This document shows positions 6,365 to 19,760 of a stretch of 19,760 nucleotides of DNA, in pieces. The notes under the pieces were generated by a model, which was given only the letters and a program-made list of their open reading frames with translations, was not told where the DNA came from and searched no databases. How positions within the stretch are numbered: the stretch's first letter is position 1; the number at the start of each line of letters is the position of its first letter. This DNA is from a virus (taxonomy: Duplodnaviria > Heunggongvirae > Uroviricota > Caudoviricetes): positions 1 through 19,760 of IMG/VR virus record IMGVR_UViG_2698536651_000010; one strand, 5' to 3'. The position numbers and the translations under genes are program-made.

Positions 6365-6395
6365 AAAAAGGCCATTAAATGGCCTTTTTGTTTTT
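6365..6395. terminator. Bidirectional rho-independent terminator shared by convergent Q and retron RT
   Basis: AAAAAGGCCATTAAATGGCCTTTTTGTTTTT: a GC stem flanked by an A-run and a T-run. It overlaps the last codons of the RT. Confidence 0.7.
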
Positions 6396-7349
6396 AGGAA
6401 AAAGAACACTTAGATCAACCCCATATGTTTCAGACATTTTATTTGAGAAAGTCATCAATTTTCTATAGTTTTTCTTGTCTACACTTTTAACAAACGCAAT
6501 AAGTCCTTTAACATGTTCGAAATCAGAATTTCTTTTTACCGCCAGATAATGGATCTTACTTCTAATTTCGCGATAACGTATTCTGCCAACTCCAACATTA
6601 TCAATAGATAAAACGAGCCCAGTAACCTCCTTCCTTGCTTTGGGGCCATGAATCGCAACTTTATTATAATTAACCTTCAAAGATTCACTTGGTATTATAG
6701 AGCATACAAATGACTTAGCTTTAAGTATTTTTTTTAAAGATTGAGCAGATAAAGTCAAATCATCGGCATATCGAGTAAATACGATCCCCTTACTACCTGC
6801 ATATCCATGTATTCTATAATCTAATTTAGTTAAAACAAGATTCGCAATCTTTGGAGAAGATGGTGCACCTTGAGGTAGCGAACCATTAAATGAACACAAT
6901 CTTGCTAAAGCATTAGAAATAGTAGAGTTATACCCCAGAGAATGAAAAACAGTATAGATTTTCTCTATCAGAATAGTATTAAAACAATCTTCTAAATCAA
7001 TATTTAATACATAGTTAGCTCCTACATGTGGGCTGGCATTATTTAATATTGATTGCCCTTTTTCAAAGCCTTTGGAAAATGGGGATGAATGTAACTTATC
7101 AAGGATGTTTCTTAACACCCAAGCTTGCAATGCCTTCAGCTCACGTGATGGCTGTGAAATGATGCGGGATCTCTTGCCATCTCTTTTTGGCAACGAATAA
7201 ACCTTATAGTATTTGTCAGCACGATAAATGTACAACCGGAGTATGTCTACTGATAAACGCATTTCTCTAGACATATCCTCTAAAGAGGACATAACAGGCA
7301 ATCCAAGATTGCGTAAGCGAAAAACCTGAGATGGTGTTGCGGAAGTCAT
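6375..7349 (-). CDS. Retron-type reverse transcriptase
   Basis: 324 aa. RT motifs: NIDLEDCF (motif A), LPQGAPSSPKIANL (motif B), RYADDLTLS (YADD catalytic motif C). Also the retron-associated NAxxH (NASPH) and VTG (EVTGLVL) motifs. ATG sits 2 nt after the a2 repeat, whose AAGGG acts as the SD. Region is AT-rich. Confidence 0.9.
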   Translation of the reverse strand: MTSATPSQVFRLRNLGLPVMSSLEDMSREMRLSVDILRLYIYRADKYYKVYSLPKRDGKRSRIISQPSRELKALQAWVLRNILDKLHSSPFSKGFEKGQSILNNASPHVGANYVLNIDLEDCFNTILIEKIYTVFHSLGYNSTISNALARLCSFNGSLPQGAPSSPKIANLVLTKLDYRIHGYAGSKGIVFTRYADDLTLSAQSLKKILKAKSFVCSIIPSESLKVNYNKVAIHGPKARKEVTGLVLSIDNVGVGRIRYREIRSKIHYLAVKRNSDFEHVKGLIAFVKSVDKKNYRKLMTFSNKMSETYGVDLSVLFPKNKKAI

Positions 7350-7351
7350 GA

Positions 7352-7510
7352 GCGCACCCTTACGTCATAAAAATCAGATTCCGAAGTGAAAGGAGAACAT
7401 CGGGAGATGTTCTCCTTTCAATGAGGGAACTGGTAAAACTTCAGATTGTATGTAGGACAGCGAAACACTGTCCAGTGAACTTCCGGAGAAGCCACTCGCT
7501 AAGGGTGCGC
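7352..7510 (-). ncRNA. Retron msr-msd non-coding RNA flanked by a1/a2 inverted repeats
   Basis: 11-bp inverted repeats GCGCACCCTTA (7352-7362) and TAAGGGTGCGC (7500-7510). Perfect 15-bp stem with 4-nt loop at 7387-7420 (msd-like hairpin). Short hairpin GGACAG/CTGTCC at 7455-7473 (msr-like). A G follows a1 in the transcript. Confidence 0.8.
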
Positions 7511-8404
7511 AAAACGCATCCTATCATAGTGGAGTATTGTTTTACCACGATTTTCGAAGTTCATCATATCCAGTCGTAGATTGTCCAAAGCCTTTCGATC
7601 AAAATGCTCAAGAACGTATTGCATACCAATTTCTGTAATATGGTATCCTTGAACTGAACGTCTAATTATTGACTCTTTAATCAAGCTTGAAATAACAGAC
7701 TTAACGATAATTTCACAAAGAATAGCATCTTTCTTAGTCACCAAATGTAATAGCTCATATAGAAGTATATTATCTATACCATCCATCAAATATATACACG
7801 GCAGTATAAAACGCCGAGCGTGAAGAATATTATCTATTGAGTGATTAACTGGGTTATTTTTTTTGATGTCATTAATACTTTTTATAATTCTATTATAAAA
7901 AGCTTTACCTGTACTCAAGCTTTCAAGAGTCGACAAATCTCCTCGCAATACTGCACCGCTATTAGCACGCCGAAGCAGTTTTATAGGCCCATAATTAAGA
8001 AAGCTTTTTTTAAGTTTGAATTTGTCATCCTGAAGACATATCATTTTTTTGCACAGTTTTTCATTATTTGAAAATGCGCCCAATTCAGCGAAAGAACCTG
8101 GGCTTTCAGGAATAATAATAATAACATCGACTGAATCAGCTAAAATATTCTCCAAACTTAAAAGACTATGCTGACCTTGTCCATACAAAAGCTCATCAAA
8201 CAACTCCTCAGGATAGAATATTTCTATTTTGGGATGTGTTTCCAACACTCTTTTAACTTTATTTCTACAAAAAAACGGATCATTCAAATCGCCCCCGCAA
8301 AGGAAAACAGTAACTTTATTTTTATTTTTCTGTTGAAAAAGCCGACTTTTAATTAAATTTGCCAGATTTTGCTTCTGCAACTCCGGAATAGTTTTCTTTT
8401 TCAT
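7499..8404 (-). CDS. Putative retron effector: N-terminal NDT-like (nucleoside deoxyribosyltransferase/LOG-like) domain plus C-terminal probable winged-helix DNA-binding domain
   Basis: About 301 aa from ATG 8402-8404 (track ORF starts at GTG 8410). Glycine-rich strand VTVFLCGG and IIIPESPGSFAELGAF resemble the NDT/LOG-type active-site region. Stop TAG (7499-7501) lies inside the a1 repeat. Very AT-rich. Confidence 0.7.
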   Translation of the reverse strand: MKKKTIPELQKQNLANLIKSRLFQQKNKNKVTVFLCGGDLNDPFFCRNKVKRVLETHPKIEIFYPEELFDELLYGQGQHSLLSLENILADSVDVIIIIPESPGSFAELGAFSNNEKLCKKMICLQDDKFKLKKSFLNYGPIKLLRRANSGAVLRGDLSTLESLSTGKAFYNRIIKSINDIKKNNPVNHSIDNILHARRFILPCIYLMDGIDNILLYELLHLVTKKDAILCEIIVKSVISSLIKESIIRRSVQGYHITEIGMQYVLEHFDRKALDNLRLDMMNFENRGKTILHYDRMRFAHP

Positions 8405-8918
8405 ATCCACTTTTCCTCAGAATGATCCCATCTTTTATACAACATTCAAATCTGAGTTTCCACCCGCTGCGCGCGCTCGTATCCCCGCCACGCCTGCCCG
8501 CTTTATGTAGTGGTTTTCATGCACCTGCATGACATAAGCAAAAGCACGCCAGTTCTGGCTGACTTCAGCAAAAACGATCCTCAAACGATCATGCGATCTC
8601 ATGCGTCATAGTCATGCGCTGCCAAGGGAAGCGTAAATCCGTATCTGAATGACTGCTGAAAAGCGAATCATACGGGTTTACAAAGATGAAAGTTCGCTGT
8701 GAGCGAGAAGCGAACCTTGCAACTTTGTTGGCACAGTTTTAACACCAATTTTTTGAGGATAGCTAGAAAACTTGTGGCATAAAGGATCAGTTTCCCGATC
8801 GAACTTTTTATCAAGAAGGGCTCATAGCAATCGCCAGAAGAAGTGATGTTAAAGTATTGAGCTCGGCGTTAAGATTAAATAAATTACAGACTAATCCAAT
8901 GTTTTGTGGAAGGATAAG

Positions 8919-9962
8919 ATGGCAGTCAAGCGCGCATACTACGGTAACGATAGTGACCGAGACTACTTAGAGCGGATATTTCAGTCAGCTAACATTAACT
9001 TTCTCATCGGATCAGGTGCATCCCTCCCAGCGATTAAAGTACTGGGGACAATCGAAACGGATCTTCAGCAGCTTATTAATGATGAACAGGAAGATGAATA
9101 CTTAAGGATGGCAGCTGACTTTTTGTCAGATGTTTGGCTACCTCATGAATGCATGTTGAAGCGCGGCTACGGCACCCCCTTCGCACCTCAGGTGATCACC
9201 GATTTGGAATGTACCCGTGCAAATTATGATGCATTTATGTCTTCACTGGAAAAGATACTGACCCGCCGCCGAACTGGCCTACTTCCGAGGCGTATTAACG
9301 TTTTTACAACTAATTATGATTTATTCATCGAAGAAGCTGCCACACGTAATAACAATATTCTTTTTAATGATGGATTCAATAGAAGAGCAAGTATTTTGGG
9401 AGATGCGGAATTTGATGCGGGTAGCTTTAATCATTCTGTAAGTGCAACCGGAAATCTGTATAATTATAAAGTTGAGCTTCCTACTGTTAACCTTATAAAA
9501 CTTCATGGTTCGCTCTCTTGGCAGCATTCTAAAGGGAAAATCATTTATCGTATTGCAGATATTAAGCCGCTTGACTTTCCCACCCTAGCCGAAATGAAAG
9601 GATGGGTACTTGCTCATGCACTTATTCTTCCACGTAAGGAGAAGTTTAAAGAGACTCTACTACAGAACGTTTATTATGATTTACTGAGAACCTATTCCAA
9701 CGAGCTTGATAAAGAAGCAACTTTACTAATTGTCTTTGGGTTCTCATTTGCTGATGAGCACATTGAAACGATAACTAAAAAAGCCCTGCGCAACGCCACC
9801 CTGAAGCTACTGATCTTTGCTTTCGATGAGGCCAGTGTTAACGGCTTTATGGAGAAATTTCGGGATTACTCAAACGTAGAGATTATTTATCGGCCGGGAA
9901 GAAATGTTGATTTTCCGGTAATGAATAACATTATCACGTGCTATCTGGGAGGCTCGAGATGA
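8919..9962 (+). CDS. SIR2-family (sirtuin-like) NADase of a SIR2-HerA defence pair
   Basis: ATG 8919 with AAGGA SD (track ORF starts at TTG 8904). Motifs FLIGSGAS (NAD-binding glycine loop), VFTTNYD, KLHGS (catalytic His), LIVFGFSFAD. Stop overlaps the HerA start (ATGA). Confidence 0.85.
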   Translation: MAVKRAYYGNDSDRDYLERIFQSANINFLIGSGASLPAIKVLGTIETDLQQLINDEQEDEYLRMAADFLSDVWLPHECMLKRGYGTPFAPQVITDLECTRANYDAFMSSLEKILTRRRTGLLPRRINVFTTNYDLFIEEAATRNNNILFNDGFNRRASILGDAEFDAGSFNHSVSATGNLYNYKVELPTVNLIKLHGSLSWQHSKGKIIYRIADIKPLDFPTLAEMKGWVLAHALILPRKEKFKETLLQNVYYDLLRTYSNELDKEATLLIVFGFSFADEHIETITKKALRNATLKLLIFAFDEASVNGFMEKFRDYSNVEIIYRPGRNVDFPVMNNIITCYLGGSR

Positions 9963-11818
9963 GCAGGCATTTTACTGAAGAGGAAGCGGTGCTCCGTATA
10001 GGCGAAGTCTGTGAGGTTTCTGGACGCGCTGTGACAATTTTGGTCGATAAAAACAAAAATCTCAGTGACTTGTTTTATCAGGGAAAAGTTCTAAGAAATG
10101 TATCAGTGGGTAGCTTCATTGAGATCAAAAAAGGTTTCATGAGCCTGATCGGCAAGGTTGAAGCGGAACGAATCATTGAGGAAAAACATCTCGCTGGGAG
10201 CGGCAGTGATGCCTGGCGATATCGGCGATACCTGACCTCTACTCTTACGGGTTACATTGATCGTACTGGTTGCTTCATTGGTGGTTCGCGTGAACTACCT
10301 CTCATCGGCAATGAAGTCTTCGTGGTAACTGAAGAGATGATACAGACGGTTCATCAGATAGCTGATGCAGACGAAACTGTAATGAGGTTTACTCGTACAG
10401 ATCTTGAAGATATTGAAATTGCACTACCAATCAATGGTCTTATTAATTCCCACATTGCCATTTTCGGTAATACAGGCAGCGGAAAGTCAAATACCCTAGC
10501 CGCGCTATACAAAGCAGGTATTGCCCAAGTTAAACATATTCTCGGCAACCACTTTAGTGAAAGATGCAAATTTATTCTATTCGACTTTAATGGAGAATAT
10601 ACTGCCCCACGCTGTATTACTGACGAGAAGACGGTTTATAATCTCAACACGCACCATGCAAATGGTGACAAACTTCCTCTACCCAGAGAGGTTCTACTTG
10701 AGCATGATATGCTCTCAGTTCTAACCGATGCAACAGACAAAACACAGAAACCTTTCCTGAAGAGAGTTCTTGAGTTTCGCAAGAAAGTGATGACCGCTGA
10801 CAATCCTCTTGAGTTTATGCGCAATATCCTGAAGAAAAAAGTCAGACAAAATCTCTTTAGTAGCGACAAACCCAAATGCGATACTATAAATCAGTTTCTT
10901 AGCCCAATTTTCAAAGATGACCCAGAACTTATATCTGATCTTGAGTATCATTCAACTGCATATAAATGGAAATTGAGGGGTGGTAGTATTTTCAATACAG
11001 AAGCTGATACTGAGCGCTCCTATCTATTCAGTCTTGCAAGCAATTTTTCATTTAAAACTGATATGATTGAAGAACTGTTGGACTTTATGTACTTACAGTT
11101 AATACAGGAATATTTATCTAACAAGTCTAACCCTGAACATATTTCACCAGTTATAAATAGAATGAGTGCTAACCGTAAAGATATAGCCAAAATATTTGAT
11201 ACTTCCGGACAGTCTGATTTTTGGGGTGAACATAATTTCACGGTTGTGAATCTAAATATGGTTAATATAACCATGAAAAAAACGCTTCCTCTTTTGATAG
11301 CCAAGTGGGCTTACAATATGAAGAAAATGTCTACAGAGAAATCTACACTGCACATCATTATAGATGAAGCCCACAATATTTTGTCTAATACTTCTTTTCG
11401 GGAAACGGAAAGTTGGAGAGATTATCGTCTGGAAACTTTTGAGGAAATCATAAAGGAGGGGAGAAAATTTGGAGTTTTTATCACAATTTCCAGTCAACGC
11501 CCTAATGATATATCGTCGACAATCATATCCCAAGCACACAATTATTTTATTCATCGCCTTATTAATCAGAATGATCTGTACGCAATTGAAAAATCAGTAT
11601 CATATATAGATCGACTGACTGAAGAGTCGATTCCAACGCTATCTACAGGAACCTGTATTTTTAGTGGTATCGTCTGCCCCATGCCGCTCAAATTAAGGGT
11701 AGCTGAACTTCCAATTGAAGAAAAACCTAAGAGTAATACTATTTCCTTCAACGATTTAATACCTGAGAGGCTGGGAGAGGATGACCAGAGCGACTACGTA
11801 ATAACCAGCCCTCACTAA
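9959..11818 (+). CDS. HerA-like (FtsK/HerA superfamily) ATPase, partner of SIR2
   Basis: ATG 9959 with GGGAGG SD (track starts at GTG 9938). Walker A GNTGSGKS and Walker B/DEAH-like HIIIDEAH. About 620 aa, typical of HerA partners in SIR2-HerA systems. Confidence 0.85.
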   Translation: MSRHFTEEEAVLRIGEVCEVSGRAVTILVDKNKNLSDLFYQGKVLRNVSVGSFIEIKKGFMSLIGKVEAERIIEEKHLAGSGSDAWRYRRYLTSTLTGYIDRTGCFIGGSRELPLIGNEVFVVTEEMIQTVHQIADADETVMRFTRTDLEDIEIALPINGLINSHIAIFGNTGSGKSNTLAALYKAGIAQVKHILGNHFSERCKFILFDFNGEYTAPRCITDEKTVYNLNTHHANGDKLPLPREVLLEHDMLSVLTDATDKTQKPFLKRVLEFRKKVMTADNPLEFMRNILKKKVRQNLFSSDKPKCDTINQFLSPIFKDDPELISDLEYHSTAYKWKLRGGSIFNTEADTERSYLFSLASNFSFKTDMIEELLDFMYLQLIQEYLSNKSNPEHISPVINRMSANRKDIAKIFDTSGQSDFWGEHNFTVVNLNMVNITMKKTLPLLIAKWAYNMKKMSTEKSTLHIIIDEAHNILSNTSFRETESWRDYRLETFEEIIKEGRKFGVFITISSQRPNDISSTIISQAHNYFIHRLINQNDLYAIEKSVSYIDRLTEESIPTLSTGTCIFSGIVCPMPLKLRVAELPIEEKPKSNTISFNDLIPERLGEDDQSDYVITSPH

Positions 11819-11831
11819 TTAACAAAGTGCT

Positions 11832-11851
11832 GAAGCGGTAACGACCGCTTC
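11832..11851. terminator. Candidate hairpin between convergent HerA and DinI-like genes
   Basis: GAAGCGGT-AACG-ACCGCTTC, an 8-bp perfect stem. No strong U-tract on either side, so terminator function is uncertain. Confidence 0.3.
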
Positions 11852-11962
11852 TAGCACAAAGCGGACGATCACTTATCAAAATGCCCGCCCACCTTACGCC
11901 TCGTTTCACTCGTTGCCCAAACTAGCCCCCATCAGAATGAATCCTCCTGGAGGCAACGTTTC

Positions 11963-12196
11963 TTAATGCAGCCAGCTGTCGTCTTCCCACACTTTCTGCA
12001 TAATTTTCATCACTTGTTTTCTTTCTTCATCCAGTTGCAGTCCGGTCAGTTCCACACCGTTAGAGCTACCTTTGCGGATACGAATTACCGTTTTGGGATA
12101 CAGGGGGCGCAGATTGCGGTAAAGCTCGGATTCAAGGGCGTCCATGGTAGACTGGCTAATCTTCTGCTCTTTATCGATCATTATTTCAATGCGCAT
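11963..12196 (-). CDS. DinI-family protein
   Basis: 77 aa from the internal ATG (MRIEIMIDK...), with GAGGTG SD. Aligns in pattern with E. coli DinI (MRIE..., ...DAL..EL..., ...EERKQ...W...D.W). The track ORF carries an unlikely 24-aa N-terminal extension. Confidence 0.7.
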   Translation of the reverse strand: MRIEIMIDKEQKISQSTMDALESELYRNLRPLYPKTVIRIRKGSSNGVELTGLQLDEERKQVMKIMQKVWEDDSWLH

Positions 12197-12206
12197 AAAA
12201 GTCACC

Positions 12207-12395
12207 TCAGCTGATGATATCCATTGAGCGGTTGTATTCGTGGCTTCTGATTTTTGCCATGAGTTCATCTGTCAGTTCAGAAACCCACTGCAAAGCCAGC
12301 CCCTTCTCTTCATCACTACACTCACTAGCCGCTACAAGCTTAAGAAAAAAATCAATGCGCTGGAGCTTCAAAGACTCCAAAAAATAGTCCTGCAT
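12207..12395 (-). CDS. Small hypothetical protein, first gene of the LexA-controlled operon (possible Tum-like antirepressor module)
   Basis: 62 aa. ATG 12393-12395 preceded by a strong SD (AGGAGG). Lies about 43 bp downstream of a perfect LexA box. The Tum-like role is inferred from position and SOS control only. Confidence 0.5.
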   Translation of the reverse strand: MQDYFLESLKLQRIDFFLKLVAASECSDEEKGLALQWVSELTDELMAKIRSHEYNRSMDIIS

Positions 12396-12437
12396 CTTTC
12401 CTCCTATAACACCAAATCAATACTGTATACATAACCA

Positions 12438-12453
12438 CTGTTTATATTCACAG
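12438..12453. promoter_or_regulatory. LexA (SOS) box
   Basis: CTGTTTATATTCACAG is a perfect CTGT-N8-ACAG palindrome with an AT-rich spacer, just upstream of the small ORF/DinI-like operon on the minus strand. Confidence 0.7.
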
Positions 12454-12468
12454 TATATAATAATCTTA

Positions 12469-12499
12469 CTGATGTAAAACGTTTTTTTACGTTCATCAG
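12469..12499 (-). terminator. Candidate terminator hairpin downstream of repA
   Basis: CTGATG...CATCAG outer stem with inner AACGT/ACGTT pairing and a T/A-rich loop, followed by AT-rich sequence. Imperfect stem. Confidence 0.35.
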
Positions 12500-12547
12500 C
12501 CTGATATGCCTGGTATTATTAAGAGCACGAATTGTTAAACCGCGTAA

Positions 12548-14962
12548 TTAATACAGATCCCGCCACTTATCATCTTCCTGCAAACGCTGGTTCCGATAGA
12601 AGATACGCAGGCCTGCTCCTGACGGAATACTGCCGCCGCGAAGGAGTAAATCGACCTCTTTCTCGCTACTATCAAATCCTCTGGACTTCAGCTCATAGAC
12701 GAGCTGCTGTCGCTGATGGTCTGTAATTCGCTGTTTGTAGTCTTTACGCCGTTTCGGTTTAACCAAGCATAACCTTGCTGCCAGTTCCCGGCGCTCTTTT
12801 TTGCTCATACTGTGCAGGTAATCGTGCAACTCCTTGTCATCCATGCGGGTGATATCCGTTCTGGTATCCCCATCAGCTGATTTGTCTTTCCCTTGTTGAT
12901 TCAAATTTTCAGCAAGGGGACAGTTATTGCCACGAGTCCAAGGGGCGCAAGCGCCCTGGTCGGCTGCCGCCTCCTGAACGTCAACGGCCTTACGAACTAT
13001 TTTCCACTTCACTGCATGAGTGCAGATCTTGCCCTCTGCAATGGGTGACCAGATGCCATAAATACGAATACCGTGATCACCATAGGCGGTCGGCTCTTCG
13101 TTGATTTCATAAGCGGTTCTGATCAAGTGATATTTGCGGGGAACCAGTACGCCGCCCTGCTTCATGATGTAGGTGGCAAAACAACCAGCATCAGCAGCAG
13201 CCAGGATGGCATCAAGGCGCGGGTTATCCAGTACCGGCGCACCTGCTTTTTTGTCACCCTGTTGCCTTGCCGCCTGACCAGCCAGCAATCGCAGTTCACG
13301 GTAAGCCTGACGCCCCGGAATGCCAAAGAAGCGGAATTGCTGAACACGATGCAGAGACGCCCAGGCATTAACGTATTCAGCGTTATCACGCAGGGATTTA
13401 CCCGTTTCCTTACTGATCTCGCCAGCCAGACCACGCCCGTCAATATTCTTACTGATATATTTCGCAATGTAGCTTGTCGGCGTTCCTTTGCGCGGGTTTA
13501 TCAGCTCAGACTTAAAGCGTGGCCCCGTGTTATTGCCCAGCTCCTCGCGGTCTTCACGGATGGCAAACTTACGCAACAATGCAGTAATGGCGCGGCGGTC
13601 TTTTTTGCGCATGAAACACAACAGGTGCCAGTGAACTGTGCCGTCATGATGCGGCTCAGCCACCCGCACGCCATACCAGCGCAACCCGGCTTTGTGCATA
13701 GCCTTACGAAATGCAGCAAACATGCCGACCAGATAATCGCTGCTTTGTCTTACTGTCGCGTTGGTCCAGGTCGGGTTTGGCCTACCGTTATTTAGCGTGG
13801 AATGGAAACGTGACGGACAGGTGATGGTGTAGAAAACGGCGCAGTCACCACGCATTTCCGCGATAAGCTCCAGGCCTTTAACACAGGTCATCATCTCGTT
13901 GCGGCGATGCGCCGGGTTGCTGCTGCTGGCGTTTACCACATCCTCCATGTTCAGCGTGTCGCCGTCTTCGTTCACCAGTTCATGAGAACGGAAAAACTCC
14001 AGCGACTTACGGCGCTGCTCACGTTTATGCATCACGGCTTCATAGCTGACATAGGGAGATGCTTTTTTGCTGACCAGGCAGACAGCACGCAACTGCTCTT
14101 CCCGCCATTCGCAACGCATCTTCCATAATTTCCGATACCACCAGTCGGCGCACAGCATACGCGCCAGCGACCCCGGAATGAGTTCATAGGGCACGGGTTT
14201 ACGGCGGTTTCTTTTCCGGCGGAGTTGCTCAAACGCAGGCGGTATGACATCCAGTCGCAGGGTTTCTGCTGCCACCTTTTCCCATGTCTTGCGGATTTCT
14301 TCTGGCTTAACGTCATCGGTGGCATACAAATCACCACAAGCGGCATCAAGGCACATGCTCATATGCGCAGCGACAAGGGTAGACAGGCGCTTCACCTGAT
14401 CCTGACTCATTTCAGGCAGGATAAGCAGGCCATCCAGCCCTTCATGGCTTGCCATAAAGCGAAAAGAAGTGGATAGCTGACAGTCGCGGACATGCTCCAG
14501 TCGTTCCAGACATGGCTTAATCGTCTCACGCAAATAGCGGGAATAAGCCTTTGGCCTGCCCAGGCTGCTGAAATATTCAATACGTTGCATCAGCGGCTTG
14601 CTGATATGGGAAGGCTGGGCATTGACGTCAGCCAGAATGACCATGTCTGGATTAAAACGCTGCTGCTCATGCGCCAGCTTTGCCCGGCTAATGAGCTTAT
14701 CCTGCTCCATTTCGCGCTGGACAGGATCACGGGATTCATTAAAGAAATAACGCTCCCAGACCTGATCACTCAGTGCCTCGCGGCGCAGTTGTTCCTGCTC
14801 GTTATCGGCAGCGTACAGAGTGATCAGGTTTGAAAGTGCAGAAACCGGCGCAACTTCCGCCGGGTCCTGATAAGGGTTAATAGCCTTTTTCGGGCTGTTC
14901 CATGAGAATGCTGCGGCGACCTCGTTAAAGCCGCTGCAGTTGTTCATATCATCATGGCTCAT
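12548..14962 (-). CDS. A: Replication initiation endonuclease (P2 gpA / 186 RepA family, HUH rolling-circle type)
   Basis: 804 aa. HUH-type motif ...[11 protein letters not shown].... Large size and position at the end of the early operon fit the family. ATGA overlap with dam upstream. Confidence 0.9.
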
Positions 14963-17617: not shown

Positions 17618-17742
17618 GATGCAACATTCCTCGTTTAATGATGATTAATCAGGACGAATACGGATCGTTTGTATTTTGTGAACACCATAAACATACGATC
17701 GCACAGTGAAATCGTCAAGATAAAAGTTCACTTGGAGTGACC
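17618..17742. promoter_or_regulatory. Lysis-lysogeny switch region (early promoter pR candidate and operator-like inverted repeat)
   Basis: On the minus strand, TTGACG (plus 17713-17718), a 17-nt spacer, then TATGTT (plus 17690-17695) form a sigma70-like promoter facing apl. Imperfect inverted repeat GATCGTTTGT (17663-17672) / ACATACGATC (17691-17700) overlaps the -10, and each arm contains a GATC site. Confidence 0.5.
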
Positions 17743-18312
17743 ATGAATTTGGAGAAAGGCGGACGAGGCGCCATAGAGCGCATGGTAGAAGCTTATGGAT
17801 TCAAGACTCGACAGGCGTTGTGCGATCATTTAGGAATCTCTAAAAGTACACTCGCCACACGCTACATGCGTGACTCATTCCCAGCAGAATGGGTAATCCA
17901 GTGCGCCCTTGAAACAGGCACCTCGCTTAATTGGCTCACAACCGGGCATGGTTCAAAGCAAACTTCAGGTAATACAAATACTATGGAAGTTGCTAAATAT
18001 GTATTATCTGATGGGGCCTTGTGTGAAGACGGTTTTTATATTTTCGATAGAGAATTTCTACCGTCGGCATTCAAGAATCTTTTTGTAATCACAGATAATA
18101 ATTCTGAATTTATTTGTGATAAGGAATTTGATGATATACGTGATGGTAAATGGGTAATAAGTATTGATGGCGAAATAACGATCCGTGACATTACTCGTTT
18201 ACCCGGTGGAAGAATCTTCGTCGAGGGTGGAAACAGAGCCTTCGAATGTAAGATAGAAGACATTGAAATAATTGGTAAAATTATAAGCTTAACAGTCAAG
18301 TATGTTAAATAG
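17743..18312 (+). CDS. cI: CI-type immunity repressor (phage 186 CI family)
   Basis: 189 aa from ATG 17743 with GGAG SD (track starts at GTG 17737). N-terminal HTH-like segment ...TRQALCDHLGISKSTLATRY.... Sits between the switch region and int, transcribed toward int as in 186. Confidence 0.8.
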   Translation: MNLEKGGRGAIERMVEAYGFKTRQALCDHLGISKSTLATRYMRDSFPAEWVIQCALETGTSLNWLTTGHGSKQTSGNTNTMEVAKYVLSDGALCEDGFYIFDREFLPSAFKNLFVITDNNSEFICDKEFDDIRDGKWVISIDGEITIRDITRLPGGRIFVEGGNRAFECKIEDIEIIGKIISLTVKYVK

Positions 18313-18327
18313 TACCGGGAGGAAATT

Positions 18328-18519
18328 ATGCTTGGTAAGGTATTTTTTGTGGTTTTGTCATGTTCTTTGTTATTAAACCCACTAGCTACCTATGCTAGAA
18401 ATTATCCCTGCTCAGGGAAAAAGGGAGGTGTTTCTCACTGTACCTCTGATGGCAAATTCGTTTGCAATGATGGAACTATTAGTAAATCCAAAAAAATCTG
18501 TACTAAAAACTCACGATAA
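18328..18519 (+). CDS. Small secreted cysteine-rich protein (moron-like)
   Basis: 63 aa with strong SD (GGGAGG, 6-nt spacing). N-terminal signal-peptide-like segment [23 protein letters not shown], then a roughly 40-aa lysine-rich mature part with four Cys. AT-rich relative to flanks. Confidence 0.6.
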
Positions 18520-18707
18520 CTTTTGCTTTTATATCTGCGCCTAAAATAAAAATGAGCCACAGGTTAACCGCAAAAGTTACATGATCACATAGCAAAAAGA
18601 ATAGCCTACTTCATTATGGCTTCAGTGAGATGTATGGTCGCAGGATTTCATACATTGACACTGGTTATACATACAGTAAAAATGCTCTCTATTGGAGGGC
18701 ATTTTTT

Positions 18708-19760
18708 ATGGCTGTACGAAAACTCACCACAGGAAAATGGCTTTGCGAATGTTACCCCGCCGGACGTAGTGGGCGTCGTGTGCGTAAACAATTCGCCACC
18801 AAAGGCGAAGCACTGGCTTTTGAGCGTCACACGATGGAAGAAACCGAAGCAAAGCCCTGGCTAGGTGAATCAGTGGATCGTCGAACACTGAAAGACGTGG
18901 TTGAGCTATGGTTCAAACTACATGGTAAATCACTGACTGCTGGGCAGCATGTCTATGACAAATTGCTGCTGATGGTTGACGCTCTGGGCAATCCCCTTGC
19001 AACTGATCTAACCTCTAAAATGTTTGCCCACTATCGAGATAAACGCCTGACAGGTGAGATCTACTTCAGCGAGAAATGGAAGAAAGGAGCAAGCCCGGTC
19101 ACCATTAACCTGGAGCAAAGCTATCTAAGTAGTGTTTTTAGCGAACTATCCCGCCTGGGCGAATGGTCGTATCCGAACCCACTGGAGAACATGCGAAAAT
19201 TCACCATCGCAGAAAAAGAGATGGCATGGCTTACCCATGAGCAGATTGTTGAATTACTGGCTGATTGCAAACGTCAGGACCCAATTCTGGCACTGGTAGT
19301 TAAGATATGCTTAAGCACAGGCGCACGCTGGCGAGAAGCCGTAAATCTTACTCGTTCACAGGTGACCAAATACCGAATTACCTTTGTAAGAACGAAGGGG
19401 AAGAAAAACAGAAGCATCCCTATCAGTAAAGAGCTTTACGAAGAGATCATGGCGCTTGATGGGTTCAATTTCTTCACAGACTGCTATTTTCAATTTTTAT
19501 CCGTGATGGAAAAAACGTCTATCGTGCTCCCTCGCGGTCAACTCACACACGTTCTGCGCCATACGTTTGCGGCGCACTTCATGATGTCGGGTGGAAACAT
19601 TCTGGCCTTACAAAAAATTCTCGGACACCACGATATAAAAATGACTATGCGTTACGCACATCTGGCACCGGATCATCTGGAAACGGCGCTCCGTTTCAAT
19701 CCTCTGGCAACGCTGCCAAGTGGCGACAAAGTGGCGGCAGCGGTTGGCATTACCCCGTAA
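18708..19760 (+). CDS. int: Tyrosine integrase (P2 Int family)
   Basis: 350 aa from ATG 18708 with GGAGGG SD. N-terminus MAVRKLTTGKW... and C-terminal catalytic region ...LRHTFAAHFMMSGGNILALQKILGHHDIKMTMRYAHL with the R...HxxR...Y pattern. Stop TAA at the window end; the att site is presumably beyond it. Confidence 0.95.
   Translation: MAVRKLTTGKWLCECYPAGRSGRRVRKQFATKGEALAFERHTMEETEAKPWLGESVDRRTLKDVVELWFKLHGKSLTAGQHVYDKLLLMVDALGNPLATDLTSKMFAHYRDKRLTGEIYFSEKWKKGASPVTINLEQSYLSSVFSELSRLGEWSYPNPLENMRKFTIAEKEMAWLTHEQIVELLADCKRQDPILALVVKICLSTGARWREAVNLTRSQVTKYRITFVRTKGKKNRSIPISKELYEEIMALDGFNFFTDCYFQFLSVMEKTSIVLPRGQLTHVLRHTFAAHFMMSGGNILALQKILGHHDIKMTMRYAHLAPDHLETALRFNPLATLPSGDKVAAAVGITP

What the first reader, a model, noticed from the sequence alone, without database searches (positions are those of the whole stretch)
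11963..12453. SOS-controlled two-gene operon: perfect LexA box, 62-aa ORF and DinI-like gene
A perfect CTGT-N8-ACAG box sits about 43 bp upstream of a strongly ribosome-bound 62-aa ORF, followed 10 nt later, in another frame, by a DinI-family gene. In phage 186 the LexA-controlled tum antirepressor occupies this position and has a DinI-like C-terminal part. Here the function appears split into two ORFs, which may be a natural two-gene form or a frameshifted tum.
Basis: partly seen in the sequence, partly recalled or inferred. Interest (0 to 1): 0.5.

Follow-up and report, generated by a model that had tools for sequence, protein, structure and literature searches.

The report
Split Tum antirepressor SOS operon
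This is the DNA-damage switch of a Fels-2-like (P2-family) prophage: a LexA-repressed promoter driving a small antirepressor gene and a DinI-like gene. It is the two-gene form of phage 186 tum, already described for phages PSP3 and Fels-2, so it is real but ordinary.

Summary
On the minus strand, just after the gpA replicase gene, lie a TTTACA-N17-TACTGT promoter and a perfect LexA box (12438-12453) over its -10. A 62-aa ORF with a strong Shine-Dalgarno follows (12395-12207). Ten nt later, in another frame, comes a 77-aa DinI-family gene (12196-11963).

The 62-aa ORF is a distant homologue of the N-terminal part of 186 Tum (profile comparison E 2e-11). The DinI gene is 41% identical to the Tum C-terminal part.

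The split is natural, not a frameshift:
- Both ORFs show dN/dS of about 0.09.
- Each has its own ribosome-binding site.
- The pair is conserved in Escherichia, Klebsiella, Salmonella and Yersinia phages and in 1127 of 5426 complete E. coli genomes.

PSP3 annotates the same pair as tumA/tumB. Published work describes the split in Fels-2 and PSP3, DNA-damage induction of the Fels-2 operon, and loss of SopEPhi transfer when tum is deleted.

Small additions from this work:
- A second, imperfect LexA box overlaps the first by one base, as in colicin promoters.
- TumA conservation tracks the CI N-terminal domain.
- A separate LexA-like box sits in the integrase promoter.

Novelty: already known. Interest: low.

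The parts
12473..12478 (-). -35 hexamer TTTACA of the SOS promoter, the equivalent of 186 p95
   Evidence: One search gives the coordinates. It is invariant in six relatives. 186 p95 has TTCACA at the same relative position.
12450..12455 (-). -10 hexamer TACTGT, 17 nt after the -35 and overlapping LexA box 1
   Evidence: It is the same hexamer as the annotated p95 -10 of phage 186. The generic promoter scan misses it because it matches TATAAT at only 3 of 6 positions.
12438..12453 (.). LexA box 1, a perfect CTGT-N8-ACAG. The 20-mer TACTGTGAATATAAACAGTG matches the consensus at 16 of 20 positions.
   Evidence: It is conserved in Fels-2, Cartapus, SopEPhi, SEN8 and MLG42. Single boxes occupy the equivalent position in 186, PSP3, ESSI-2 and ev015.
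12423..12438 (.). LexA box 2, imperfect (coding strand GTGGTTATGTATACAG). It overlaps box 1 by one base, the colicin-type dual operator layout.
   Evidence: It is conserved in the Fels-2 group. The region is 83% identical over 48 nt to the colicin N promoter, ACTGTATATAAAACCAGTGGTTATGTGTACAGTA.
12400..12405 (-). Shine-Dalgarno AGGAGG of tumA
   Evidence: Invariant in relatives.
12207..12395 (-). tumA-like gene, 62 aa. It is the presumed CI antirepressor and is predicted to fold as a two-helix hairpin.
   Evidence: ORF. It is 95% identical to Fels-2 STM2728 and 89% to SopEPhi orf10. Homology to 186 Tum N-terminus is shown. dN/dS is 0.09. The AlphaFold2 model has helices 2-23 and 28-61 with pLDDT 85. 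It belongs to PHROG 698, 'unknown function'.
12203..12208 (-). Shine-Dalgarno GAGGTG of the DinI-like gene, overlapping the tumA stop codon
   Evidence: Junction sequence ATCAGCTGAGGTGACTTTTATGCGC.
11963..12196 (-). tumB / dinI-like gene, 77 aa
   Evidence: Pfam DinI E 4.2e-23. It is 41% identical to 186 Tum residues 71-145 and matches E. coli DinI structure 1GHH at E 3.6e-6. PSP3 TumB is its annotated counterpart. dN/dS is 0.08.
11832..11851 (-). GC-rich hairpin (GAAGCGGU-CGUU-ACCGCUUC) in a strongly structured 3' region. It is the likely end of the operon, between the convergent dinI and HerA genes.
   Evidence: The fold of 11810-11965 (-) has z-score -4.66. It has no canonical T-run, so the terminator scan does not call it. 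Its role as a terminator is inferred.
17737..18312 (+). 186-type CI immunity repressor, the presumed target of TumA
   Evidence: Pfam Phage_CI_repr E 2.8e-33 and Phage_CI_C E 2.7e-27. It is 33% identical to 186 CI.

Best explanation
The region is the SOS induction module of a Fels-2-like, P2/186-family prophage.

In an undamaged cell, host LexA binds the operator that overlaps the -10 of a promoter placed just after the replicase gene A. It probably binds as two dimers on two overlapping boxes. This keeps a two-gene transcript silent.

DNA damage activates RecA and LexA cleaves itself, so the operon is transcribed. The first product, the 62-aa helical-hairpin protein TumA, binds the prophage's non-cleavable 186-type CI repressor and stops it holding the lytic promoter. 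The prophage then enters lytic development.

The second product, a DinI homologue (TumB), binds RecA filaments and modulates the SOS signal.

It is the natural split form of the fused 186 tum gene. Phage 186 itself also makes the DinI part separately from an internal start.

What is shown here: the anatomy, homology of both halves to Tum, purifying selection on both ORFs, conservation of the operator, and the presence of a 186-type CI. What is inferred from orthologues and the literature: LexA binding, TumA-CI binding and the RecA effect.
For: Anatomy and position:
- The gene order matches 186 and PSP3: gpA (Pfam Phage_GPA E 5.6e-128), then promoter with LexA box, then tum.
- The window has TTTACA-N17-TACTGT with the box over the -10. 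186 p95 has TTCACA-N18-TACTGT.

Operator:
- The operator is a conserved footprint among diverged flanks.
- It is present in all ten phage sequences compared.

Homology:
- TumA family profile against Tum N-terminal profile: 97.3% probability, E 2e-11.
- Against full-length 186 Tum, residues 3-48: 95%, E 3.6e-8.
- The Yersinia phage YenM_324 ORF bridges the two: E 7e-10 to the window ORF and 2e-14 to 186 Tum.
- The DinI gene matches Tum residues 71-145 at 41% identity, E 3e-24.

Both ORFs are real genes:
- dN/dS is 0.08-0.10 at dS 0.7-1.1.
- 66 phage records carry the 62-aa ORF.
- The operon matches in 1127 of 5426 complete E. coli genomes.

Target:
- The window encodes a 186-type CI.

Literature:
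- Fels-2 and PSP3 have tum split by a stop codon, and the upstream PSP3 gene carries the antirepressor activity (PMC3121763).
- The PSP3 record annotates tumA as 'UV induction of prophage'.
- The predicted Fels-2 operon STM2726-STM2727-STM2728 was called differentially expressed after the mutagen MX. STM2727 was induced 5.5- to 14.8-fold (PMC2225428).
- Two reviews report that deleting SopEPhi tum blocked phage transfer.
Against: - No experiment was done on this sequence.
- Direct BLASTP of the 62-aa ORF against 186 Tum finds nothing. Homology rests on profiles and intermediates.
- PSP3 TumA, the one split-form protein said to have antirepressor activity, matches the window family only weakly (E 0.004, probability 8.6%).
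- The PSP3 activity is a personal communication cited second-hand.
- I could not read Bunny et al. 2002 or Diard et al. 2017. I therefore cannot say which ORF was mutated in Fels-2 or SopEPhi.
- The -10 is weak and the generic promoter scan does not call it.
- Databases list the ORF as of unknown function (Pfam none; PHROG 698).
Confidence: 0.9

Rival explanations
1. The two ORFs are the remains of a fused, 186-type tum gene broken by a frameshift or stop mutation. The module would then be a decaying pseudogene and the prophage would no longer be SOS-inducible.
For: 186 Tum is a single 146-aa protein carrying both parts. The two window ORFs are in different frames, 10 nt apart.
Against: - The same two-ORF layout, with intact ORFs of the same lengths, occurs in Fels-2, SopEPhi, SEN8, MLG42, Cartapus and dozens of Klebsiella phages, and in PSP3 as tumA/tumB.
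- Both ORFs show strong purifying selection: dN/dS about 0.09 at near-saturated synonymous divergence.
- The second gene has its own Shine-Dalgarno.
- Of 67 representative clusters of the TumA family, nearly all are stand-alone proteins of about 35-100 aa and none looks like a fusion with DinI.
- Several phages carry tumA with no dinI at all.
Confidence: 0.02
2. The operon is SOS-controlled, but the 62-aa protein is not the antirepressor. It would have another role, for example modulating the DinI homologue, RecA or host physiology, and induction of this prophage would run through another route.
For: - There is no direct biochemical evidence for this family.
- It is annotated 'hypothetical' or 'unknown function'.
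- Similarity to PSP3 TumA is weak.
- TumA is 95-98% identical in phages whose whole CI proteins are only 40-56% identical.
Against: - It is homologous to the N-terminal part of Tum, the part that lacks DinI similarity. The literature assigns the antirepressor function to that part.
- The CI N-terminal domain stays 70-77% identical among phages sharing this TumA, against 39% to 186. The C-terminal domain is only 27-42% identical. That pattern fits a TumA contact on the N-terminal domain.
- The ORF persists after gpA behind a LexA box in phages that lack dinI.
- 186-type CI has no known self-cleavage route (established knowledge for 186).
Confidence: 0.07
3. The CTGT-N8-ACAG match is a chance palindrome in AT-rich intergenic DNA, and the operon is not under LexA control.
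For: One such match somewhere in a 19.8-kb window is not rare: 43 of 200 shuffles had at least one.
Against: - It lies over the -10 of the only plausible promoter, in a 152-nt gap.
- It is conserved in every relative examined, including distant ones with otherwise different intergenic sequence.
- It matches the annotated LexA site of 186 p95 in position.
- It forms a colicin-like double operator.
- STM2727 of the orthologous Fels-2 operon is strongly induced by a DNA-damaging mutagen.
Confidence: 0.01

Closest known systems
Phage PSP3 tumA/tumB (NC_005340; TumA 60 aa, TumB 77 aa)
   Same: - It has the same two-gene layout directly after gene A, behind a LexA box over a TACTGT -10.
- TumB is a close DinI-type counterpart of the window gene.
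- tumA is annotated 'similar to 5' end 186 tum; UV induction of prophage'.
   Different: - PSP3 TumA is only marginally similar to the window ORF (E 0.004).
- PSP3 has a single, near-consensus LexA box (19 of 20), not two overlapping boxes.
- The spacer between the genes is 3 nt rather than 10 nt.
Fels-2 STM2728 / STM2726.1 (STM2727), and SopEPhi orf10/orf11
   Same: - These are true orthologues. TumA is 95% identical in Fels-2 and 89% in SopEPhi, and the DinI gene is near-identical in Fels-2.
- They share the same dual LexA operator and spacing.
- Published work covers the split, damage induction and the tum requirement for SopEPhi transfer.
   Different: - The CI repressor differs: 40-44% identity overall, mostly in the C-terminal domain.
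- Fels-2 carries an orf97-like gene after dinI. The window instead has convergent SIR2-HerA defence cargo.
Phage 186 tum (146 aa) under the LexA-repressed promoter p95
   Same: - Same position and same promoter/operator logic.
- Both halves are homologous.
- 186 also translates the DinI part separately from an internal GTG with its own Shine-Dalgarno.
   Different: - The halves are fused in 186 and separate here.
- The N-terminal halves are too diverged for BLASTP.
- 186 has one LexA box.
- 186 has orf97 downstream in the same operon.
Gifsy prophage dinI-antirepressor operons (GfoA, GftA)
   Same: They are LexA-controlled operons that pair a DinI homologue with a small antirepressor of a non-cleavable repressor (PMC3121763).
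   Different: The gene order is reversed (dinI first). They belong to lambdoid phages. No sequence relation of GfoA or GftA to this ORF was tested here.
Colicin promoters with two overlapping SOS boxes (e.g. colicin N, cna)
   Same: The operator sequences are nearly the same and share the one-base overlap. The window has ACTGTGAATATAAACAGTGGTTATGTATACAGTA and cna has ACTGTATATAAAACCAGTGGTTATGTGTACAGTA.
   Different: The downstream genes are different. In colicin N the boxes lie downstream of the TTGACA -35; the transcription start was not mapped. That double boxes give tight, delayed induction is my own knowledge of colicins and was not tested here.

Membership tests
186 Tum-type SOS antirepressor module (split tumA/tumB form) | Located immediately downstream of the P2/186-type replicase gene A, on the same strand | tested here: met
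   gpA lies at 14962..12548 (-) with Pfam Phage_GPA E 5.6e-128. The operon starts 70 nt after its stop. The order matches 186, PSP3 and Fels-2.
186 Tum-type SOS antirepressor module (split tumA/tumB form) | Promoter with a LexA box overlapping the -10 | tested here: met
   The promoter is TTTACA-N17-TACTGT with box 12438-12453. It is conserved. 186 p95 is annotated the same way.
186 Tum-type SOS antirepressor module (split tumA/tumB form) | First product homologous to the N-terminal (non-DinI) part of Tum | tested here: met
   hhalign gives 97.3% probability, E 2e-11 and 95%, E 3.6e-8 against 186 Tum residues 3-48. There is a bridging homologue. Direct BLASTP is negative.
186 Tum-type SOS antirepressor module (split tumA/tumB form) | Second product homologous to the DinI-like C-terminal part of Tum | tested here: met
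   41% identity, E 3e-24 to Tum residues 71-145. Pfam DinI E 4.2e-23.
186 Tum-type SOS antirepressor module (split tumA/tumB form) | Cognate 186-type CI repressor in the same element | tested here: met
   17737-18312 (+) matches Phage_CI_repr and Phage_CI_C and is 33% identical to 186 CI.
186 Tum-type SOS antirepressor module (split tumA/tumB form) | Transcription repressed by LexA and induced by DNA damage | not testable with these tools
   Evidence exists for orthologues only. Fels-2 STM2727 was induced 5.5- to 14.8-fold by the mutagen MX.
186 Tum-type SOS antirepressor module (split tumA/tumB form) | Product binds CI and prevents operator binding | not testable with these tools
   This is known for 186 Tum (Shearwin et al. 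1998, as cited). For split forms it is only reported for PSP3 as a personal communication.
DinI family (PF06183) | Sequence match above the curated threshold over the whole domain | tested here: met
   81.9 bits against a cut-off of 24.2, covering profile positions 1-63 of 63. It matches E. coli DinI structure 1GHH at E 3.6e-6.
DinI family (PF06183) | Binds RecA filaments and modulates co-protease activity | not testable with these tools
   Inferred from the family.
Colicin-type double LexA operator | Two 16-bp SOS boxes overlapping by one base | tested here: met
   The boxes lie at 12438-12453 and 12423-12438. The region is 83% identical over 48 nt to the colicin N promoter.
Colicin-type double LexA operator | Occupancy by two LexA dimers giving tight, delayed induction | not testable with these tools
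   Box 2 has GTGG in place of CTGT in one half. Whether LexA binds it was not tested.
Frameshifted pseudogene of a fused tum | Relaxed selection or sporadic occurrence of the break | tested here: not met
   dN/dS is about 0.09 for both ORFs. The layout is conserved across genera.

The most novel reading that the evidence does not exclude
This prophage lineage may have a small SOS regulon of its own rather than a single LexA-controlled gene.

- A colicin-type double LexA operator on tumA-dinI would set a high damage threshold.
- A second LexA-like box sits exactly in the spacer of a strong-looking integrase promoter: TTGACA, then CTGGTTATACATACAG at 18661-18676, then a single T, then AAAAAT. 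The box is conserved in relatives and is perfect in the 70%-identical phage ESSI2_ev129.
- A nearly invariant TumA may contact the conserved CI N-terminal domain. One damaged cell's TumA could then cross-induce P2-family prophages whose CI proteins differ.

I found no report of the integrase box or the cross-induction idea for P2-like phages.
Probability: 0.3. Interest if true: 0.4.

Novelty: already known. Interest (0 to 1): 0.15.

Why it matters
It explains how this prophage senses DNA damage. The prophage also carries SIR2-HerA and retron defence cargo. The module is present in about one fifth of complete E. coli genomes. Its SopEPhi orthologue is reported to be required for inflammation-boosted phage transfer in the gut.

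The practical value is an annotation fix. Pfam has no family for the 62-aa protein, and PHROGs and RefSeq label it 'unknown function' or 'hypothetical'. It can be labelled TumA-like antirepressor. No open question is changed by this finding.

Tried and rejected
- Direct BLASTP of the 62-aa ORF against 186 Tum gave no alignment. Profiles and an intermediate sequence resolved it.
- Pfam gave no credible family for the 62-aa ORF. PHROGs gave only 'unknown function' families.
- A PDB sequence search with the family profile gave nothing.
- Foldseek of the AlphaFold2 model against the PDB gave only generic helical hairpins, all with E above 0.5. This was uninformative.
- The word-index protein search returned only relatives of about 80% identity or more in its listed top 120. 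The exhaustive representative search was needed for diversity.
- The generic promoter/terminator scan found nothing in 11700-12700. The -10 is weak, as in 186 p95, so this does not count against the promoter.
- The 20-mer LexA consensus with up to 3 mismatches gave no hit. Box 1 has 4 mismatches, all outside CTGT/ACAG.
- Rfam at gathering thresholds found nothing in the window.
- A literature search for 'tumA/tumB' returned only noise. Bunny et al. 2002 is not held.
- The 101-aa ORF starting at 12268 is rejected as the DinI start. The DinI domain and all homologues begin at the ATG at 12196, and the longer ORF overlaps tumA.
- A hairpin upstream of the integrase ATG showed no compensatory covariation.

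Full report
**1. What is in the sequence**

The feature lies on the minus strand. An 804-aa ORF (14962..12548) is a P2/186-type replicase (Pfam Phage_GPA, E 5.6e-128). After its stop comes a 152-nt gap, then a 62-aa ORF (12395..12207), and then a DinI-type ORF.

Read on the coding strand, the gap contains these elements:
- TTTACA (12478-12473).
- A 17-nt spacer.
- TACTGT (12455-12450).
- The 16-mer CTGTGAATATAAACAG (12453-12438).
- AGGAGG (12405-12400), 4 nt before the ATG.

The 62-aa ORF ends with TGA at 12209-12207. GAGGTG overlaps this stop. After a 10-nt spacer, an ATG at 12196 opens a 77-aa ORF in another frame, which stops at 11963. That ORF is a full-length DinI domain (PF06183, E 4.2e-23, 81.9 bits against a cut-off of 24.2). 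Every coordinate and spacing in the finding is therefore correct.

**2. Is the LexA box more than chance?**

CTGT-N8-ACAG occurs once in the window. About 0.25 matches are expected, and 43 of 200 shuffles had at least one. The match alone is therefore weak evidence.

Position and conservation carry the case:
- All nine related phages examined have a CTG-N10-CAG box at the equivalent place upstream of the equivalent ORF. They are Fels-2, Cartapus, SopEPhi, SEN8, MLG42, ESSI2_ev015, ESSI-2, 186 and PSP3.
- In an alignment of the six Fels-2-type upstream regions, the -35 and the stretch TATACTGT..TATAAACAGT.G.TAT.T.TACAG stand out as a footprint. The promoter spacer and the 5' leader diverge.
- The phage 186 record annotates p95 as TTCACA-N18-TACTGT with a LexA site over the -10. 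That is the same design.
- The generic promoter scan calls nothing here because TACTGT matches the -10 consensus poorly. The same is true of the experimentally defined p95.

**3. A second box**

GTGGTTATGTATACAG (12438-12423) follows box 1 on the coding strand and shares one base with it. One half is a perfect ACAG and the other is GTGG instead of CTGT.
- It is conserved in the Fels-2 group and absent from 186, PSP3 and ESSI-2.
- A search of plasmids with this 71-nt stretch hit small mobilizable plasmids at 83% identity over 48 nt.
- In one of them the match lies just upstream of the colicin N gene. The sequence there is ACTGTATATAAAACCAGTGGTTATGTGTACAGTA. The window has ACTGTGAATATAAACAGTGGTTATGTATACAGTA.
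- The operator is therefore of the colicin double-box type.

That such operators bind two LexA dimers and give tight, late induction is my own knowledge of colicin regulation. It was not tested here.

**4. What the two genes are**

*DinI-like gene.* It is 41% identical (E 3e-24) to residues 71-145 of 186 Tum. It matches E. coli DinI (1GHH).

*62-aa ORF.* It gives no BLASTP alignment to Tum and has no Pfam family. The link to Tum comes from intermediates and profiles:
- tblastn with the ORF and with the Tum N-terminus recovered ORFs in the same genomic slot of other P2-family phages.
- The Yersinia phage YenM_324 ORF matches the window ORF (E 7e-10) and 186 Tum (E 2e-14).
- A 7-sequence family alignment against a 4-sequence Tum N-terminal alignment gives 95.2% probability, E 2.5e-8.
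- A 29-sequence alignment, built from an exhaustive search of 1.84 billion representatives, gives 97.3%, E 2e-11.
- The same alignment against full-length 186 Tum alone gives 95%, E 3.6e-8 over Tum residues 3-48.
- The shared core is E-x-[ILV]-x-[LI]-[QE]-R-[IV]-[DE]-x-[IF]-x-[RK]-L-x-A-x3-C-x3-[DE]-[KR]-x-[LI]-A-L-x-[WL]-[IV]-[AS]-E-[LI].
- AlphaFold2 predicts a two-helix hairpin (helices 2-23 and 28-61, mean pLDDT 85). Fold search was uninformative.

**5. Natural split or frameshift?**

It is a natural split.
- The same two intact ORFs occur in 66 phage records from Klebsiella, Escherichia, Salmonella, Yersinia and Cronobacter.
- The region matches in 1127 of 5426 complete E. coli genomes.
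- Against SopEPhi, SEN8 and MLG42, synonymous divergence is near saturation (dS 0.73-0.98). dN/dS is 0.09-0.10 for the 62-aa ORF and 0.08-0.09 for dinI.
- The family comprises 67 representative clusters. Nearly all are stand-alone proteins of about 35-100 aa, and none looks like a fusion with DinI.
- ESSI-2, ESSI2_ev015, YenM_324 and ENT90 carry the first gene behind a LexA box with no dinI gene at all.
- Phage 186 translates the DinI part separately from an internal GTG preceded by AAGGAGG. Fused and split forms therefore deliver similar products.

**6. It is already described**

- The PSP3 record annotates the pair as tumA ('similar to 5' end 186 tum; UV induction of prophage') and tumB ('similar to dinI and 3' end of 186 tum').
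- The Fels-2 record links its DinI gene to PSP3 TumB.
- Lemire et al. [quoted passage not shown] They cite Bunny, Liu and Roth 2002 and a personal communication.
- In a Fels-2-carrying Salmonella strain, the predicted operon STM2726-STM2727-STM2728 was called differentially expressed after the mutagen MX. STM2727 rose 5.5-, 11.1- and 14.8-fold, one of the most significantly induced genes listed in the LexA-regulon table (PMC2225428).
- Two reviews report that Diard et al. 2017 blocked SopEPhi transfer by deleting tum. SopEPhi orf10 is 89% identical to the window ORF.
- I could not read the two primary papers. I therefore do not know exactly which ORF was mutated in Fels-2 or SopEPhi.

**7. How it most likely works**

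*Shown here:*
- The anatomy.
- Homology of both halves to Tum.
- Purifying selection on both ORFs.
- Conservation of the operator.
- A 186-type CI in the same element: Phage_CI_repr plus Phage_CI_C, 33% identical to 186 CI.

*Inferred:*
- LexA holds the promoter shut.
- Damage-induced LexA cleavage releases tumA-dinI.
- TumA binds CI and removes it from the lytic operator.
- The DinI homologue tunes RecA filament activity.

*One further observation.* Whole CI proteins of phages that share a 95-98% identical TumA are only 40-56% identical to the window CI. Split by domain, the picture changes:

| Comparison with window CI | N-terminal DNA-binding domain | C-terminal domain |
|---|---|---|
| Phages sharing this TumA | 70-77% | 27-42% |
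| Phage 186 | 39% | 31% |

This fits a TumA contact on the N-terminal domain. It is a correlation from six genomes, not a test.

**8. Boundaries and context**

- Similarity to most Fels-2-type phages stops at the dinI stop codon.
- Downstream lies a strongly structured segment (z -4.66) with a GC hairpin at 11832-11851.
- Beyond it are convergent cargo genes: SIR2 plus HerA (8904-11818, +), and a type II-A retron pair of NDT effector plus reverse transcriptase (8410-6375, -).
- In Fels-2 and 186 an orf97-type gene follows instead.

**9. Side lead**

A relaxed scan found CTGGTTATACATACAG at 18661-18676.
- It fills 16 of the 17 nt between a perfect TTGACA (18655-18660) and AAAAAT (18678-18683). 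This lies upstream of the likely integrase start at 18709.
- Homology with other phages carrying this integrase begins just before the -35.
- The box is conserved in those phages. In the 70%-identical ESSI2_ev129 it is a perfect CTGTATAAATAAACAG.
- A hairpin plus T-run between box and ATG shows no compensatory changes.
- I found no paper on a LexA-controlled integrase in P2-like phages.
- This is outside the finding and untested.

**10. Verdict**

The element is a member of a known and experimentally studied kind. Interest is low. The useful outputs are an annotation for a 'hypothetical' protein family, the double-operator detail, and the integrase-promoter lead.

Noticed in passing
window 18655-18709 (+): A second LexA-like box, CTGGTTATACATACAG (18661-18676), fills 16 of the 17 nt between a perfect -35 TTGACA and AAAAAT. 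It lies upstream of the likely integrase start (ATG 18709). It is conserved in phages sharing this integrase and is a perfect box in the 70%-identical ESSI2_ev129. It may mark an SOS-controlled integrase promoter. A hairpin plus T6 just before the ATG contains the Shine-Dalgarno but shows no covariation.
   Followed up: partly
window 8904-11818 (+): A SIR2 (352 aa) plus HerA (626 aa) anti-phage defence pair lies convergent with the SOS operon (PADLOC E 6e-211 and 6e-267; Pfam SIR2_2 and DUF87). The junction with this HerA gene is shared by only 13 of the 1127 E. coli genomes that match the operon region.
   Followed up: partly
window 6375-8410 (-): A type II-A retron-like pair is present: an NDT effector (303 aa, PADLOC E 2.6e-97) and a reverse transcriptase (324 aa, E 4.6e-123; Pfam RVT_1). 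Rfam at gathering thresholds found no RNA family, so the msr/msd RNA was not located.
   Followed up: partly
window 18328-18519 (+): A 63-aa ORF with a signal-peptide-like N-terminus and several cysteines sits between cI and the integrase gene. In phage 186, cI is followed directly by int. It may be a moron.
   Followed up: no
window 11810-11965 (-): The 150 nt after the dinI stop fold far better than shuffles (-59.1 kcal/mol, z -4.66, 0 of 200 shuffles as good). This is more structure than a simple terminator needs.
   Followed up: no
window 12474-12503 (-): An AT-rich hairpin (CUGAUGAACG...CGUUUUACAUCAG) lies between the gpA stop and the SOS promoter. Its 3' arm contains the -35 hexamer. The fold is only marginally better than shuffles (z -1.61).
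   Followed up: no
L018 (Klebsiella phage Kp4860-7, OK490413 2636-3739): The open frame holding CI continues upstream through a second, diverged copy of the CI N-terminal helix-turn-helix domain. tblastn also reported two places in that record.
   Followed up: no
L007, L008, L010, L011 (ESSI2_ev015, ESSI-2, ENT90, YenM_324): These phages carry a TumA-like ORF after gpA without any dinI gene. A LexA box was confirmed upstream in ESSI2_ev015 and ESSI-2; it was not examined for ENT90 or YenM_324. In ESSI-2 and YenM_324 the ORF is not annotated.
   Followed up: partly
proteins P0147, P0149, P0153, P0156, P0162, P0169, P0173, P0178, P0181: A subset of TumA homologues has a C-terminal extension rich in glycine that ends in LQ or FQ (for example ...GGISGGGSRFQ). 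The window protein lacks it. Its meaning is unknown.
   Followed up: no
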